DNA of 64,000 bases from Eledone cirrhosa (Eukaryota): NCBI GenBank assembly GCA_964016885.1, contig OZ024748.1, positions 60,078,001-60,142,000 of the forward strand. Direction: 5' to 3'. Positions 5,987 to 13,031 of the stretch are shown one piece after another. The notes under the pieces were generated by a model that did not search any database, was not told where the DNA came from, and was given only the letters and a program-made list of their open reading frames with translations. Within the stretch, counting starts at the first letter, position 1. Each line of letters starts with the position of its first letter. Position numbers and translations under genes: made by a program.

Positions 5987-6372
5987 ATTATACATACACA
6001 TATATACTTACACACACACACGTATATACATACACACACATGTGTGTGTGAATGTATGTTGTGTGTGTGTGTATGTGTGCGTGTGTGTGTATAAGACAAA
6101 GACATGCAGCTCGACGGAATGGTACTCAACGTTATAGACTTTCCTTATTTCTTCGTCTCAGCAATATTTTTCGTTGTTTTCGTTTTGGTCAGATTCTTAA
6201 TTAGAACAGATACATATCTCATACTTGTACCTCTCGTATATGTATCCATCTACATATCTATCTATCTATATATCTATCTATGCATATTTATATAGTTATC
6301 CTTCAACCTATCTATCTATATTTATATATTTATCTTTCTATCTATCTATCTATCTTTCCATCTATCTATCTA

Positions 6373-8031
6373 AAGCGGTGTCGGCCTACGCCGATGACGT
6401 GACAGTAATGGTGTCGACGGCCTCCGAAATCGAGGCGGTCGGCACCTTACTGGAGGAGTACGAAAGGTTCACAGGGGCTAAGCTGAACCGGGACAAGTCG
6501 ATCGCTTTGCAACTCGGCACGTGGAGGGGCAGACCGATGCCCTCCGATGGCGTCGTCGGAAGCTGGACGGAGGGCCCGGTGAAGTTGCTCGGGGTCTGGT
6601 TCGGACCGGACCTCCAGGTGGAGAAAAACTGGGCGGAGGTTACGAACAGGGTGTTTGCACTGACCCAGAAGTGGGCCAGTTGCAAACTAACCCTGAAAGG
6701 TCGGGCGGAGGTGGCGAACACCTATATAGCGTCCGTCATCTACTACAGCCTGACCGTAGTGCGCTGCCCAAGGGAAACCCTCACCAAGATGGAGCGCGCG
6801 CTCTTCCAATTCCTTTGGAAGAGGCGGGCTCCTATGGTGAGGAGATCCATCTGCTGTCAACACCCTTCGAAAGGAGGGCTGGGGATGCCGTGGCTAATGA
6901 TGCGTAAACACGCATTAAGGCTACGGCACCTCTACGTATTCCTCACCGGTCAACCGGTGTGGGCCTCGTTTGTGAGACGAACCTTTCCCAGACTCGTCTC
7001 ACTCACCGAGCTGCAATCCTGGGTCAAGCAGAGACCGAGAAAACTGGGCGCCTGGCACACTCAGTGTGCCCAGGCGCTCACCGCCCTCTGGCAGGCGGAT
7101 CCGGTTATCATTGGAGACTCCACCGCAACATTCTATAGAGGGCTGGTACGCAGCAGGTGCGACGACGCCCTCGGAGAAGCCCTAGACATGAAGGAGGACG
7201 GACTGGCCAGCCTGTTCGGTAGGACATTCAGCCCAGGACCTATGGACAACTTCCAGAAGTCCCTGGCCTGGCAGTGCTACCGAGGGGCTCTACCCGTTCG
7301 AGAAAAGCTCTACAGACACGGGCGCCCGGGTAGGGACCCCGCCAAAAAGATCTGTCCCAGATGCGTGTGCGACGAGGAAACCGTTGCACACGCATTGGTA
7401 CACTGCTCGGGCGTAGCCGATCTGTGGGGCTATGTCGAACAACTGCTGTCAAGGGTGGGACCGATCCGGTTGACCACCGAGTCTATTGTAATGATCAAGC
7501 CGCCTCCCCCCTTCATAGATGAAGGAGAGGCGGTGTTTCTGTGCGTAATAGCCATGGTGAAAGAAGTTGTATGGTGGACGCGTCTGAAAGGACTGAGGTC
7601 AGGCACCTTTCTCTCTGGCCAACAACTGGTCCGTTTCTTCCGATATCATTTCGGAAGAAGGATCAGGATGGAGAGAGAGGTGCTCCACCCCAGTCGTTTT
7701 TATGAAAGGTGGGTGAAAGTGGCGAGAATGGCCCGTGTGAATGGGCCTTCTCTTTACATAAGCCTGTAGGTGGAAAAGAGGAAGGAACGAGGGAGCACGC
7801 CCTCTCTGTGCTCCTGAGGAAAAGGGTTGCACACTTTTTTCGTGGGTGTGTGCGACCCCCCAAGGCGCCTCCTCTCTATTGAGGATTTTGTTATAAATTT
7901 TATTTTTTGTTATATTTTATTTTATTTTTATACTTTGTTATTGCCTCCTCCTTATTGAGGGCGCCTTTTTGTGTAAACTCCCCCCTTTGTACTTGTCCCA
8001 CTTTTGATGCCCTGGTGGCAAATAAAAGAAA
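6373..8031 (+). mobile_element. 5'-truncated L1/Tx1-clade non-LTR retrotransposon (ORF2 C-terminal half plus 3' UTR)
   Basis: Open frame 6373-7769: AYADD, KLLGVWF, GGLGMP, CPRC...ETVAHALVHC zinc knuckle; AATAAA near 8021. GC-rich against flanks and bounded by (ATCT)n on both sides. Confidence 0.93.
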
Positions 8032-8035
8032 CATA

Positions 8036-8039
8036 TCTG

Positions 8040-8118
<79 letters not shown>
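8036..8118. repeat. (ATCT)n microsatellite between the two Tx1 copies
   Basis: Direct sequence. Confidence 0.98.
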
Positions 8119-9238
8119 GTGACCAGGGGCGTAGTCACACTAGTCAGGAAGGACGAGAATAAGGAGGATGGCATAGGCAACTTCCGGCCCATAACTCTGC
8201 TAAACACAGAGTTACAGATTTTGGCCAAGGGGTTTGCAAAGAGGCTGGCGCTTGTCGTCGAAAACCTGGTGGGAGAGGCGCAGAAATGCGCAATCCCGAC
8301 CAGGTTCATACACGAAAACCTCCACCTCATGCGATACATCATAGAGAGGGTAGGGTGTAAACCCGGCTTCGTTGGGGCCCTCATCAACTTGGATCAGTCT
8401 AAGGCTTACGATATTGACCATCGTTACCTAGATGCGGTGCTCGAGGCGGCAGGTTTCGGACCCGTGTTCAGGGGCTGGATTGCTGCAATGCACAACAGCA
8501 ACATCTGCTAAAGGGTCGAGGTGAACGGCTACATCTCGGAGCCGTTCCATATCACGCGATCCATCCGACAGGGATGACCTCTCTCCTCCCTTCTGTACGT
8601 ACTGACTCTCGAGCCATTACTGCGGAAGTTGGAGCTATTGCAGGGCAACCCTTTAGAACCGGGACTGCAGAAAGCGGCTTAACAGTAATGGTGTCAAGCA
8701 CCTCGCAAATCGAGGAAGTCGGCACCTTACTGAAGGCATACGAAAGGTTCACAGGAGCGAAGCTGAACCGGGACAAGTCTGTCGGTTTGCAACTAGGATC
8801 GTGGAGAGGCAAACCGATGCCTTCCGATGGCGTCGTCGGACGCTGGACGGAAGGACCGGTGAAGCTGCTCGGGGTCTAGTTCAGTCCGGACCTCCAGATG
8901 GAGAAGAAGTGGAACGAGGTGACGGCCAAGGTGTTTGCGCTCACCCAGAAGTGGGTAGAGTGCAAACTATCCTTGAAAGGTCGAGCGGAGGTGGCGAACA
9001 CTTTCATAGCGTCCGTCATCTACTACCGCTTGACCGTCGTGCCTTGTCCAGCCAAAACTCTCACCAAAAGGGAGCGCGCGCTCTTCCAATTTCTATGGAA
9101 GAAACTGGCTCCTTTGGTGAGAAGATCCATCTGCTGACAACACTCTTCACACGGAGGGATGGGGATGCCGTGGCTGACAATGCGCAAACACGCGCTCAGG
9201 CTGCGGCATTTCCACGTATTCCACACCGGACAACCGTG
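8119..9238 (+). pseudogene. Second, degenerate Tx1-clade ORF2 fragment
   Basis: RGVVTLVRK, NFRPITLLN, DQSKAYD, IRQG*PLS motifs, then a segment (8681-9237) paralogous to 6402-6959. Contains stops, frameshifts and a deletion over the YADD region. Confidence 0.9.
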
Positions 9239-9723: not shown

Positions 9724-11021
9724 TAAAATAACAGATTCAAGTTTAAACAAAGAATCGCTGCTTTCACCCTTAATGGGATCTTCTGAAACTAACAAAGTCA
9801 ATCTGTAAACGCAGAAGTGCATATTTCAAAAAACGTTGCAAACGGAGGAAGACAGGAAGACGATACTTTGGTTCGTGGAAACGTTCCCTTCAGAAAACAT
9901 ACAGGTAATATATACTTACCTACGCAAATAAGTAATGGTATAAACATAACATATACTTAGCTACCACATCAAGACGTAAAATATCCACGTATAGATCGTA
10001 CTATCCGTTAGGGTATAATGTGGGGCTGTAATACAGGAAGGTTTTGTGCAATTTATGTTTACAAGCCGAAATTGCCTCAGATTTTTTGTTTAAGATGCGT
10101 TCTGTGGCGTAGAGTATTTCCAGGACCTCAGCGGCGCAGAGGTCACATGGTCTTTTATTTCCGTTATACGATCTAGCCCTAGCTAAGATCTCCCAGTGTA
10201 ACTTATATTGGGTGTGGTTGTCTTTTAGACTCCAGATATAAGCTGAAAGTGACGTCATATTCCTTCTTAGAGAGTAACGAAAAGAATGGGTATGCATGTA
10301 AAGACGTTGCTTGAATCTATTGGCGGTTAACCCTATGTAGGCCCTACGGGACGTGGGTGTTTCAACCTTACATTTGTAGACAATGTTACTAGAGAGGCAT
10401 TTCCCGGAAAGGGGGCAATCAACCAGATTCCTACAATTACAGTTAGTACTAACTACAGGGTTGCACGTGTTCCTACGGCTAGGTAGTTTAGCTAAATTTG
10501 AAGCTGTGATGTTATGTGCAAGGTTAATAGACGTAGAGTAAGAAATTTTAATAGTATTTCTATTAAAAATTTTAGTATATTTATGTGTAGGGGGAGAATG
10601 CTTCGTAATAAGGGATAGAAAGATCTTAGCTAATGGTGTGGCCACCTCCATATTATATGGTGGGTTATACCATATAATGCGACGGGATCTATTTCTTCTA
10701 GGTCTATTCTCGTACTCTGTATATGCTACCTTATCGCAAATCCACTCCGAGCAAGAGCTTCATTGTAATAAGTGGAATGGTCGTTGAAAATATGCTCGTT
10801 AGTAGATAGACGGGAAAGCCTCAACGTAACGTTTCTTACCAGGTTCTTGGTTACGCTGGCAGGATGGTTGGAATGCTTACTTATGTAATTAAGCGTATCA
10901 TTCGGCTTTCTATACGAATAATACAACCCATTCGATAAATTGAGGGTAACGTCGAGGTAATTAACGACCGAGAGGTTTGCCTCAACCTGTATAGAGCGGT
11001 TGAAGCCTTTAAAGAAGGCTG
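9721..11021 (-). mobile_element. 5'-truncated Penelope-like element (RT C-terminus/thumb, Cys-rich linker, GIY-YIG endonuclease, 3' pLTR with HHR)
   Basis: VNYLDVTLNL..YRKPND..SNHP (10726-11021); frameshift near 10740; IIWYNPPYN..NCNC..CPLSGKCL..IVYKC..YIGLT..FKQRLYMH..CDLCAAE..LNKKSE (10001-10725). Confidence 0.93.
9740..9790 (-). ncRNA. HHR motif in Penelope pLTR (family G, CAGAAGA core)
   Basis: Minus strand agttt-CAGAAGA-tccc(attaa)gggt-GAA-agca(gcgattctt)tgtt-T-aaact. Confidence 0.7.
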
Positions 11022-11102
11022 TCTCTACGGTTCTCATATATTTGATATATATTTATCCTTATCGAGCACTCTTTGGATTTTAGTCTTCATATTTATTATT
11101 AT

Positions 11103-11143
<41 letters not shown>

Positions 11144-11462
11144 GTAATAATAATAAATTTGAAGACTAAAATCCAAAGAAGGCTCGATCAGGATAAATAT
11201 ATATCAAATATATAAGAACCGTTCATTGCCAGAGAACTTCTCCATGAACCACCTAATAGAATGTTAGTCTACGAGTTCATTTATACCATAAACGTGGTTT
11301 TGTCTTTGCGTGTAATTGTTTTCCTCGCACCAAATAATGACGTATTATCTTCGTTTTTTCCCGTTCTTTGCCAGGGAACGTTTCCACGAACCAAAGTATC
11401 GTCTTCCTGTCTTCCTTCAATTGCAACGTTTTTTTAAATATTTACTTCTGCGTTCACAGATT
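11022..11462. mobile_element. Rearranged and inverted pLTR pieces of the Penelope element
   Basis: 11373-11462 is the reverse complement of ~9802-9890. 11022-11105 and 11141-11222 are inverted copies of the pLTR tail also seen at 1122-1205, 21528-21615, 23027-23067, 36517-36595. Confidence 0.85.
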
Positions 11463-12244
11463 TTCCAACCATCATTGGTATTTCATCGCATTAAAAATCA
11501 GATACCTCAGGTTGGTGCGAGCAATAACTAAAAAAAGTTATTGGGACCAGTAAATCGCGTAAAGCGAGGGGGACAAGTAAACAACCGCTTTACGCGAATT
11601 ACTGGTCCCATTAACTCTTTTTAGTTATTGCTCGCACCAACCTGAATTATCTGATTTTTAATGCGATGAAATACCAATGATGGTTGGCAAATCACTGACG
11701 AAGGACTATTTTTATCATGTGTAACCCATGTGCAAATCACGCAGTATTCTTCTTTCTTCTCATGTTTTTTATATATATTTACCTCGGCTGCGTTTGTCTG
11801 TTTCTCTCTTACTGCTTCCCCGCTCTCTCTGTTTCTCTCACCTTCTTTCGCCCCCTCTGTCAGTTACACCTTCTCTCGACTGACCTCTTCCTCACACTTC
11901 CACTCACTCACTCTCTATTTCTCCCCTTCTCACTTCCTCCCGTTTGGCTTGTGTGGTTCTCTTCTTGCTTACATCTCACACACATCGACACGACGGTCTG
12001 TACCTCTCTCGCTCATGAAATCCACCCAGCTGATGCTGACCGGACAACCATGTTGCTTGTTTATTTTCCTATCTTCGGTTTGCTTTTATCCTTCTATGTT
12101 GTTTACTTGTCCCCCTCGCTTCACGCGAATTACTGGTCCCAATACCTTTTTTTAGTTAGTGCTCGCACCAACCTGAGGTATATGATTTTTAATGCGATGA
12201 AATACCAATGATGGTTAGAAAATCACTGACGAACGACTATTTTA

Positions 12245-12676: not shown

Positions 12677-13031
12677 TAAAGAAAAAGAGATGAAATCGAA
12701 AATGCAACTGGAGTCTTATTTTTTTTTTAAATATATATATTTATTTGGTTCCTTTACCGGTTTCGCAGTTCTTCTGCTTTTCAAAAGGTGAGTTGAGATG
12801 GAGGGTCTGTGGTTTTTCTCACATGATGTGAGAAAAACCACAGACACTCCATCTCAACTCACCTTTTGAAAAGCAGAAGAACTGCGAAACCGGTAAAGGA
12901 ACCAAATAAATATATATATTTTTTAAAAAAATAAGACTCCAGTTGCATTTTCGATTTCATCTCTTTTTCTTTATACTTTCACTCGTGTAGGACACCTCGG
13001 TTATTTTTCATTTTGTAAAAAAAAACCTCAC

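What the first reader, a model, noticed from the sequence alone, without database searches (positions are those of the whole stretch)
9740..9790. Penelope pLTR ribozyme with A4 core (CAGAAGA), U-U closing of stem II and a 4-bp stem III
Seen: ~210 nt downstream of the GIY-YIG stop, with the same core in solo copies (22382, 36447, partial 21625). Position 4 is A, pair 10.1-11.1 is U-U, stem III agca/tgct has a 9-nt loop, and the triplet is CUU/CUC/UUU. Fixation across copies shows it is the family state. This ties the HHR elements physically to a PLE. Whether this variant cleaves is unknown.
Basis: partly seen in the sequence, partly recalled or inferred. Interest (0 to 1): 0.75.

Follow-up and report, generated by a model that had tools for sequence, protein, structure and literature searches.

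The report
Jumping gene with crippled hammerhead ribozyme
A very abundant Penelope-type jumping gene carries a self-cutting RNA motif whose normally fixed fourth core letter is changed in about 19,000 copies, which likely switches cutting off, so the family offers a natural test of whether these elements need to cut their own RNA.

Summary
Real. Minus strand 9740-9790 is a type I hammerhead fold 215 nt behind the endonuclease stop of a 5'-truncated Penelope-like element. The element belongs to the Hydra clade, not Penelope proper. Two of the three flagged oddities are ordinary there: U-U at 10.1/11.1 (14 of 26 published rows; 20 of 43 relatives here) and a 4-bp stem III. The long loop III is shared with the nearest sister family. 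What is unusual is A4, plus a CUU triplet. A4 is fixed: 18,902 exact copies, two subfamilies, no other letter shown in runs of six other organisms. It is derived: the sister family and 42 of 43 relatives have U4. Mutational scans predict little cleavage. Roughly 3,000 copies (estimate) begin at the first base of helix I, mostly after an extra G, which suggests capped, uncut RNA starting at the ribozyme. No 5' ends pile up at the scissile bond, but the U4 sister family shows none either. A 228-copy passenger spread with stem II broken. Best reading: a disabled ribozyme kept as promoter/leader sequence. Cleavage is untested.

The parts
9740..9790 (-). Type I hammerhead fold in the 3' pLTR; A4 core, U10.1-U11.1, 3-bp stem II, 4-bp stem III with 9-nt loop
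9779..9785 (-). Core CAGAAGA; A4 at 9784
9786..9792 (-). 5' strand of stem I; TTAGTT initiator-like motif (consensus recalled); inferred RNA start at A 9790
   Evidence: junction peak with extra G in other copies
9746..9762 (-). Stem III AGCA/TGTT here (TGCT in the family); AGC repeat allows a second register AGCGA/UUGYU with a 4-nt loop
9716..9739 (-). 3' end of the copy (+69 from C3, the first of two end sites), followed by (TA)n
9791..10000 (-). 3' UTR, shortened by an internal deletion of about 697 nt near 9887
10001..11022 (-). 5'-truncated ORF: end of the RT region, CxCX5C linker (10415-10441), GIY-YIG-type endonuclease with CxxC and CxH; frameshift near 10720-10730
11023..11105 (+). Inverted 'tail' arm closing the insertion against (TA)n
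11146..11462 (+). Piece of a neighbouring insertion of the same family (long-UTR version), ending at a palindrome
22327..22456 (+). Short copy of the older (T-run) subfamily, A4, CUU
36422..36590 (+). Two-armed solo copy; long arm starts at the first base of helix I after GG and carries most of the tail
21529..21688 (+). Two-armed solo copy: inverted tail plus an arm starting inside the core
56259..56300 (+). Fragment starting at stem III

Best explanation
The motif is the pLTR hammerhead of a Hydra-clade Penelope-like family in which a derived U4-to-A change has likely crippled self-cleavage, and the sequence is likely kept because it overlaps the start and leader of the element's RNA. Shown: a 3.25-kb unit with a 709-aa RT-EN frame; the motif in both pLTRs of tandem copies, 198 nt before the ATG; two copy end sites at +69 and +156, both 3' of the scissile bond (+40/41); a sharp peak of copy starts at -5 with excess G. 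Inferred: Pol II starts at the first base of helix I; the capped RNA is used uncut; reverse transcription starts internally at +69 or +156 and either runs off at the cap (the solo copies at 36447 and 21625) or copies the whole unit from the downstream pLTR; insertion is into (TA)n. Cleavage is not needed for this, so A4 could be fixed.
For: A4 is fixed: 29 of 29 copies picked by the endonuclease alone (30 loci, 1 without the motif); 18,902 exact 30-mers against 684 with another letter, and 25 of 30 of those inspected are fold-back junctions, not substitutions; 100 of 100 listed copies of an older subfamily (6,766 matches); no other letter listed at that place in contigs of six other organisms. 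A4 is derived: the sister family (52% aa, same 100/100 clade) has CUGAUGA and GUA; 42 of 43 metagenome relatives have U4, 1 has C4; all 26 Hydra rows of File S2 have ctga. Low activity is expected: in a full pairwise scan all single and double mutants of the CUGA turn were low except the C3/G8 swap (PMC9901934, passages). The triplet is CUU, seen in 0 of 43 relatives (filtered set). Uncut templates: of 30 copies that run into the ORF, 17 extend through the upstream motif and 0 start at the scissile bond; 3,519 copies have a non-T before helix I, 60 G / 23 C / 17 A in the first 100, and 26 of 30 inspected are true junctions, against 236 at the scissile bond (tail-bearing only), 14 of 30 junctions. 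A non-coding passenger of about 1 kb with stem II broken has 228 exact copies. In the anole element, catalytic mutants did not affect insertion in vitro (PMC11167929).
Against: No cleavage or RNA data. The U4 sister family also shows no pile-up at its scissile bond (0 at +38/39, 3 at +35 to +37, of 77), so missing cleavage-site ends do not show that A4 is dead. All other core letters and all three stems are unchanged between the two subfamilies: 0 differences in 52 columns against 28 in 275 upstream (about p 0.025 for the 37 columns not fixed by my search patterns). The anole motif cleaves only with protein, so solution rules may not hold. The broken-stem lineage is non-autonomous and shows only that the fold is not needed in cis. 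Some junction Gs (about 6 of 20) could come from the opposite arm. Folding is weak evidence: 7.4-10.5 kcal/mol above the ensemble against a median of 4.4 for 43 relatives, but several U4 relatives score 7-10 and a natural U4 copy scores 7.4 against 7.7.
Confidence: 0.6

Rival explanations
1. The A4 form still cleaves, slowly or only when the element's protein binds or two copies pair, and this residual activity is under selection.
For: Core and stems unchanged across subfamilies whose upstream UTR differs by about 10% and across runs of six other organisms; stem III keeps pairing with a flipped 15.2-16.2 pair relative to relatives; natural U4C keeps a viroid infectious (PMC3088659); protein-assisted cleavage in the anole element.
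Against: Loops and the 15 nt behind the motif are as unchanged as the stems; no rescue of CUGA mutants in the pairwise scan; no A4 among 43 relatives or the other hammerhead families scanned in 930 kb of this genome; competing folds pair the core halves or shift stem III.
Confidence: 0.25
2. A4 was favoured, not just tolerated: cutting would remove the capped 46-nt leader, so turning it off raised the supply of mRNA and template; or A4 serves another signal (it creates a TTTCAG acceptor-like site).
For: The motif lies at the inferred RNA start; the family is very large (18,902 exact 30-mers; 481 tail-to-leader junctions); natural U4 copies with stem I intact are rare (161) and formed no clear lineage among 30 inspected.
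Against: The U4 sister family is also large (4,437 matches to a 34-mer); one family is one event; no spliced form was looked for in RNA.
Confidence: 0.12
3. The likeness to a hammerhead is chance or an assembly artefact.
For: No Rfam hammerhead match; this copy alone scores only E 0.096 with the Hydra model; fold z-scores near zero.
Against: Same place in the pLTR as in relatives, better-preserved copies at E 0.001-0.0035, about 19,000 copies on both strands, other organisms' runs.
Confidence: 0.02

Closest known systems
Hydra clade of C-terminal EN+ PLEs and their hammerheads (Craig et al. 2021, PMC8557442; passages, Files S1 and S2, rows of S4/S7 and Fig. S7 text)
   Same: RWR/RWK, DKT, CxCX5C linker, CxxC and CxH, (TA)n target, single frame of about 700 aa, hammerhead near the 3' end with frequent U-U and 4-bp stem III.
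   Different: A4, G15.2-C16.2 with CUU, 9-nt loop III (1-3 nt in File S2), 3.25-kb unit with a UTR of about 930 nt; not Hydra-1_Obim, whose hammerhead differs. Their descriptor needed CUGANGA and would miss A4.
Poseidon of Anolis carolinensis, PAc (Frangieh et al. 2024, PMC11167929; parts 1-2 of 4 read)
   Same: Two internal RT start sites giving a tail; hammerhead upstream of them; uncut RNA as template.
   Different: Canonical core that cleaves with protein; frame starts inside the hammerhead; 87-nt tail here.
Minimal PLE hammerheads (Cervera and de la Pena 2014, PMC4209133; parts 1-2 of 4 read)
   Same: Type I motif in pLTRs, many solo copies, low activity, core variants (U3-A8).
   Different: No A4 in the parts read; theirs lack or shorten helix III and keep G10.1-C11.1.
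Natural core variants U4C and U10.1-U11.1 (Perreault et al. 2011, PMC3088659; part 3 of 8 and passages)
   Same: U-U is known and the best-tolerated mismatch; position 4 can vary in nature.
   Different: Only U4C is named; figure 5 and supplements S6-S7 could not be seen.

Membership tests
Hydra-clade PLE | C-terminal EN after RT in one frame | tested here: met
   709-aa frame in natural copies, aligned end to end with about 700-aa relatives; Pfam gave no family
Hydra-clade PLE | RWK motif and DKG changed to DKT | tested here: met
   RLRWRA (K to R) and SDKT
Hydra-clade PLE | CxCX5C linker; CxxC and CxH instead of CCHH | tested here: met
   CNCRNRVDC, CDLC, CKH
Hydra-clade PLE | (TA)n insertion, pLTR, inverted arm with tail | tested here: met
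Hydra-clade PLE | RT tree placement against named Hydra, Nematis, Neptune and Poseidon references | tested here: inconclusive
   The tree held only Hydra-like rows, with no named references from other clades; placement rests on motifs
Type I hammerhead ribozyme | Three stems around a junction, stem I open | tested here: met
Type I hammerhead ribozyme | C3, G5, A6, G8, A9, G12, A13, A14, A15.1-U16.1, H17 | tested here: met
Type I hammerhead ribozyme | U4 of the CUGA turn | tested here: not met
   A in 18,902 exact copies
Type I hammerhead ribozyme | Stems covary within the family | tested here: inconclusive
   No variation between subfamilies; strong covariation in 32 relatives, 10 of 11 pairs, on an alignment that does not hold this family
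Type I hammerhead ribozyme | Self-cleavage after H17 | not testable with these tools
   No RNA run was laid (0 contigs from two RNA or guessed-RNA runs)

The most novel reading that the evidence does not exclude
PLE hammerheads sit at the very first bases of the capped transcript and act as self-decapping brakes; this family disabled its brake with one U-to-A change, possibly by a flip of the TTC-T-GAA palindrome that its own inversions still use, and then made tens of thousands of copies.
Probability: 0.2. Interest if true: 0.75.

Novelty: new variant of a known kind. Interest (0 to 1): 0.45.

Why it matters
What PLE hammerheads do is called unclear in PMC8557442, which even asks whether they only parasitise the elements. 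Here an autonomous, very successful family has a core change predicted to be crippling, next to a sister family with a canonical core in the same genome. Two short transcripts and one substitution test whether cleavage matters. If A4 cleaves, it is a core state that a full mutational scan did not rescue. The extra-G peak also places the RNA start at helix I, which makes cleavage a decapping event and explains the many solo motifs. Searches that demand CUGANGA miss such families.

Tried and rejected
Rfam: no hammerhead family matched. Pfam: no hit on the window frames or the full protein. A U4 subfamily as living ancestor: the 684 non-A matches are mostly fold-backs at the TTCAGAA palindrome (25 of 30); the 161 with stem I intact looked like scattered changes. 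Apparent 57-75% 'sister' frames at L410, L411, L412 and L415 were frameshifted or older copies of this family at DNA level; motifs found there had A4. Cleavage-site ends as proof of inactivity: weakened by the sister-family control. Misfolding by A4: only 0.4 kcal/mol against a natural U4 copy. Two A4-like hits in metagenome loci (L151 inside the frame, L167 second-ranked; U3-A8, weak stems) were dropped as chance; the count of 43 comes from 77 loci with a filter for stem III starting AC or AT, and holds near-duplicates. An initiator at a fixed place in relatives: not seen (18 of 61 with the motif, scattered). RNA evidence: two RNA or guessed-RNA runs laid nothing, which is no proof of absence. 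Literature on natural A4: searches (0 papers) showed none in the listings; one search found nothing linking the start site to the hammerhead. The 2017 paper on small PLE hammerheads and the 1998 viroid U4C paper are not held; my memory that U4A did not cleave in the latter is recall only. PMC3376415, PMC6155905, PMC6431247, PMC3846280, PMC11014351 and bioRxiv 10.64898/2026.07.22.740005: passages only, nothing on A4.

Full report
Observation. The minus strand of 9740-9790 reads as a type I hammerhead: stem I AGTTT/AAACT, core CAGAAGA, U10.1, stem II CCC/GGG, U11.1, GAA, stem III AGCA/TGTT with a 9-nt loop, H17 = U. It lies 215 nt behind the stop of a truncated frame. Copies lie at 22327-22456, 36447, 21622 (starts inside the core) and 56259. 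Rfam does not match it. A model built from 32 metagenome relatives finds the 22380 copy at E 0.0035 and this copy at E 0.096.

The element. The window is part of a 3.0-Gb genome. The endonuclease part gave 76,961 first-look candidates; several of the 150 scored have 713-codon open frames. Natural full copies hold a 709-aa frame with RWR, SDKT, CNCRNRVDC, CDLC and CKH, the marks of the Hydra clade in PMC8557442. The unit is about 3.25 kb. In tandem copies the motif stands in both pLTRs, 198 nt before the ATG. The usual 3' UTR is 909-948 nt (21 of 29); the window copy has lost about 697 nt. Copies end at +69 or +156 from C3, next to (TA)n, like the two internal RT starts of the anole element (PMC11167929).

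What is ordinary. File S2 of PMC8557442 lists 26 Hydra rows: 14 have U-U at 10.1/11.1, 23 a 4-bp stem III, all ctga (counted by eye). Of 77 metagenome loci, 43 gave a scored motif: U-U in 20, U4 in 42, C4 in 1, A4 in none; triplets GUA 32, GUU 5, GUC 5, AUA 1 (filtered, with near-duplicates). U-U is also in PMC3088659. The nearest sister family in this genome (52% aa; same clade at 100/100) has CUGAUGA, U-U, a 4-bp stem III with an 8-nt loop and GUA. Only A4 and the G15.2-C16.2/CUU remain special.

A4 is fixed and derived. 29 of 29 copies chosen by protein have it. The exact 30-mer occurs 18,902 times; 684 have another letter. 25 of 30 of these are head-to-head junctions at the palindrome TTC-A-GAA, which reads TTC-T-GAA on the other strand. 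An older subfamily (6,766 matches) has A in 100 of 100 listed. Contigs of six other organisms' runs cover the place and list no other letter (the two runs and three are thin). The sister family and all outgroup rows of the tree have U4; the motifs of P0001 and P0006 are unknown.

Does it cleave? Not testable here. Against: in a pairwise scan, all CUGA mutants but the C3/G8 swap were low and not rescued (PMC9901934); predicted folds pair UUUCA with UGAAA or shift stem III into a second register, though the energy contrast is weak; a non-coding element of about 1 kb that borrows this 3' end has two changes that break stem II and 228 exact copies, with shared marker letters in 28 of 30 inspected (7 of the 30 share another 3' continuation and may have moved as part of another repeat). 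For: 0 majority differences in the 52 motif columns between subfamilies against 28 in 275 upstream (150 young and 43 old copies of 207; two upstream columns define the classes and part of the motif was fixed by my patterns; about p 0.025). Loops are as fixed as stems, which fits a signal in the sequence as well as a ribozyme.

Where the RNA starts. 3,519 copies have a non-T before AGTTTCAGAAGATCCCG; the first 100 show 60 G, 23 C, 17 A (hand count). 26 of 30 inspected are junctions at the first base of helix I, so about 3,000 in all (estimate). An extra G at a junction is the expected trace of a copied cap (established for other retroelements; recalled). About 6 of 20 Gs could come from the opposite arm, and some Cs are the other arm's G. 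At the scissile bond, 236 tail-bearing copies have a non-T; 14 of 30 are junctions, 6 of them through the stem I microhomology. Like for like, that is about 1,050 against 110-175 (estimates). In a sample not picked by these patterns, 7 of 217 start at -5/-4, none at +40/41 and 4 at +39 or +42. Of 30 copies running into the frame, 17 extend through the upstream motif and none starts at the bond. The control matters: the U4 sister family also starts near the 5' edge of helix I, sometimes after G, and shows no peak at its bond. So inserted copies come from uncut RNA in both families; this says cleavage is not needed for insertion, not that A4 is dead. That the pLTR holds the start site is in print for Penelope (PMC8557442); a start at helix I was not found.

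Mechanism. Inferred: transcription starts at helix I; the leader holds the motif, two RT start sites and the ATG; RT starting in the leader runs off at the cap and makes the solo motifs; RT starting in the downstream pLTR makes long copies; two cDNAs from both ends of a cut (TA)n join by short homologies and give the fold-backs. A working hammerhead would cut off the capped 46 nt. U4 to A likely removed this with no cost, and the sequence stayed because it is promoter and leader. Confidence 0.6; residual cleavage 0.25; selected loss or new signal 0.12.

Novelty. The clade, the pLTR hammerhead, U-U and the 4-bp stem III are known. A family-wide A4 was not found; two key papers were not held, and figures and supplements of PMC3088659 and PMC4209133 were not seen and may list such a variant. 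Earlier scan notes on this genome describe Hydra elements and twin hairpins at the RT starts, none on A4. New variant of a known kind; interest 0.45.

Noticed in passing
G000-wide; L098-L127; window 36422-36590: Fold-back junctions are concentrated at the TTC-A-GAA palindrome in the core (about 570 estimated) and recreate a CUGAAGA core on one arm, without stem I.
   Followed up: partly
L290-L319: Non-autonomous element of about 1.05 kb: about 780 nt of unrelated sequence plus this family's 3' end with broken stem II, between (TA)n runs; 228 exact copies.
   Followed up: partly
L416-L445, L424; window near 16690-16750 (decayed): Sister Hydra family with canonical core, 8-nt loop III, 4,437 matches to a 34-mer; its copies also start near helix I.
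   Followed up: partly
window 18500-18552 (-), 18752-18809 (+), 44729-44781 (+): Another hammerhead family with C at position 4 (CCGAAGA / CCGAGGA) and a long stem II.
   Followed up: no
window 12748-12791, 12859-12902, 47601-47644, 41740-41783: U3-A8 hammerheads (TTGAAAA core); their loop II holds the CAGAAGA hits, which are unrelated to this finding.
   Followed up: partly
window 36090, 24559, 35881, 30849, 31066, 31496, 55740: Further canonical CUGA hammerheads of at least four families.
   Followed up: no
L079 tail, +70 to +120 and +157 to +175 from C3: GCTC...GAGC stems just behind both copy end sites, as earlier notes on this genome describe.
   Followed up: partly
window 9783-9800 (-): A4 creates TTTCAG after a pyrimidine-rich run, an acceptor-like site; a donor-like GG|GTGAAA lies in stem II and a TTTTAG in the tail. 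No RNA test.
   Followed up: no
window 11461-11691: Near-perfect palindrome of about 230 nt (MITE-like or fold-back) beside the element.
   Followed up: no
window 6201-9150 (+): Broken non-LTR elements with RVT_1 and zf-RVT matches below the curated cut-offs.
   Followed up: no
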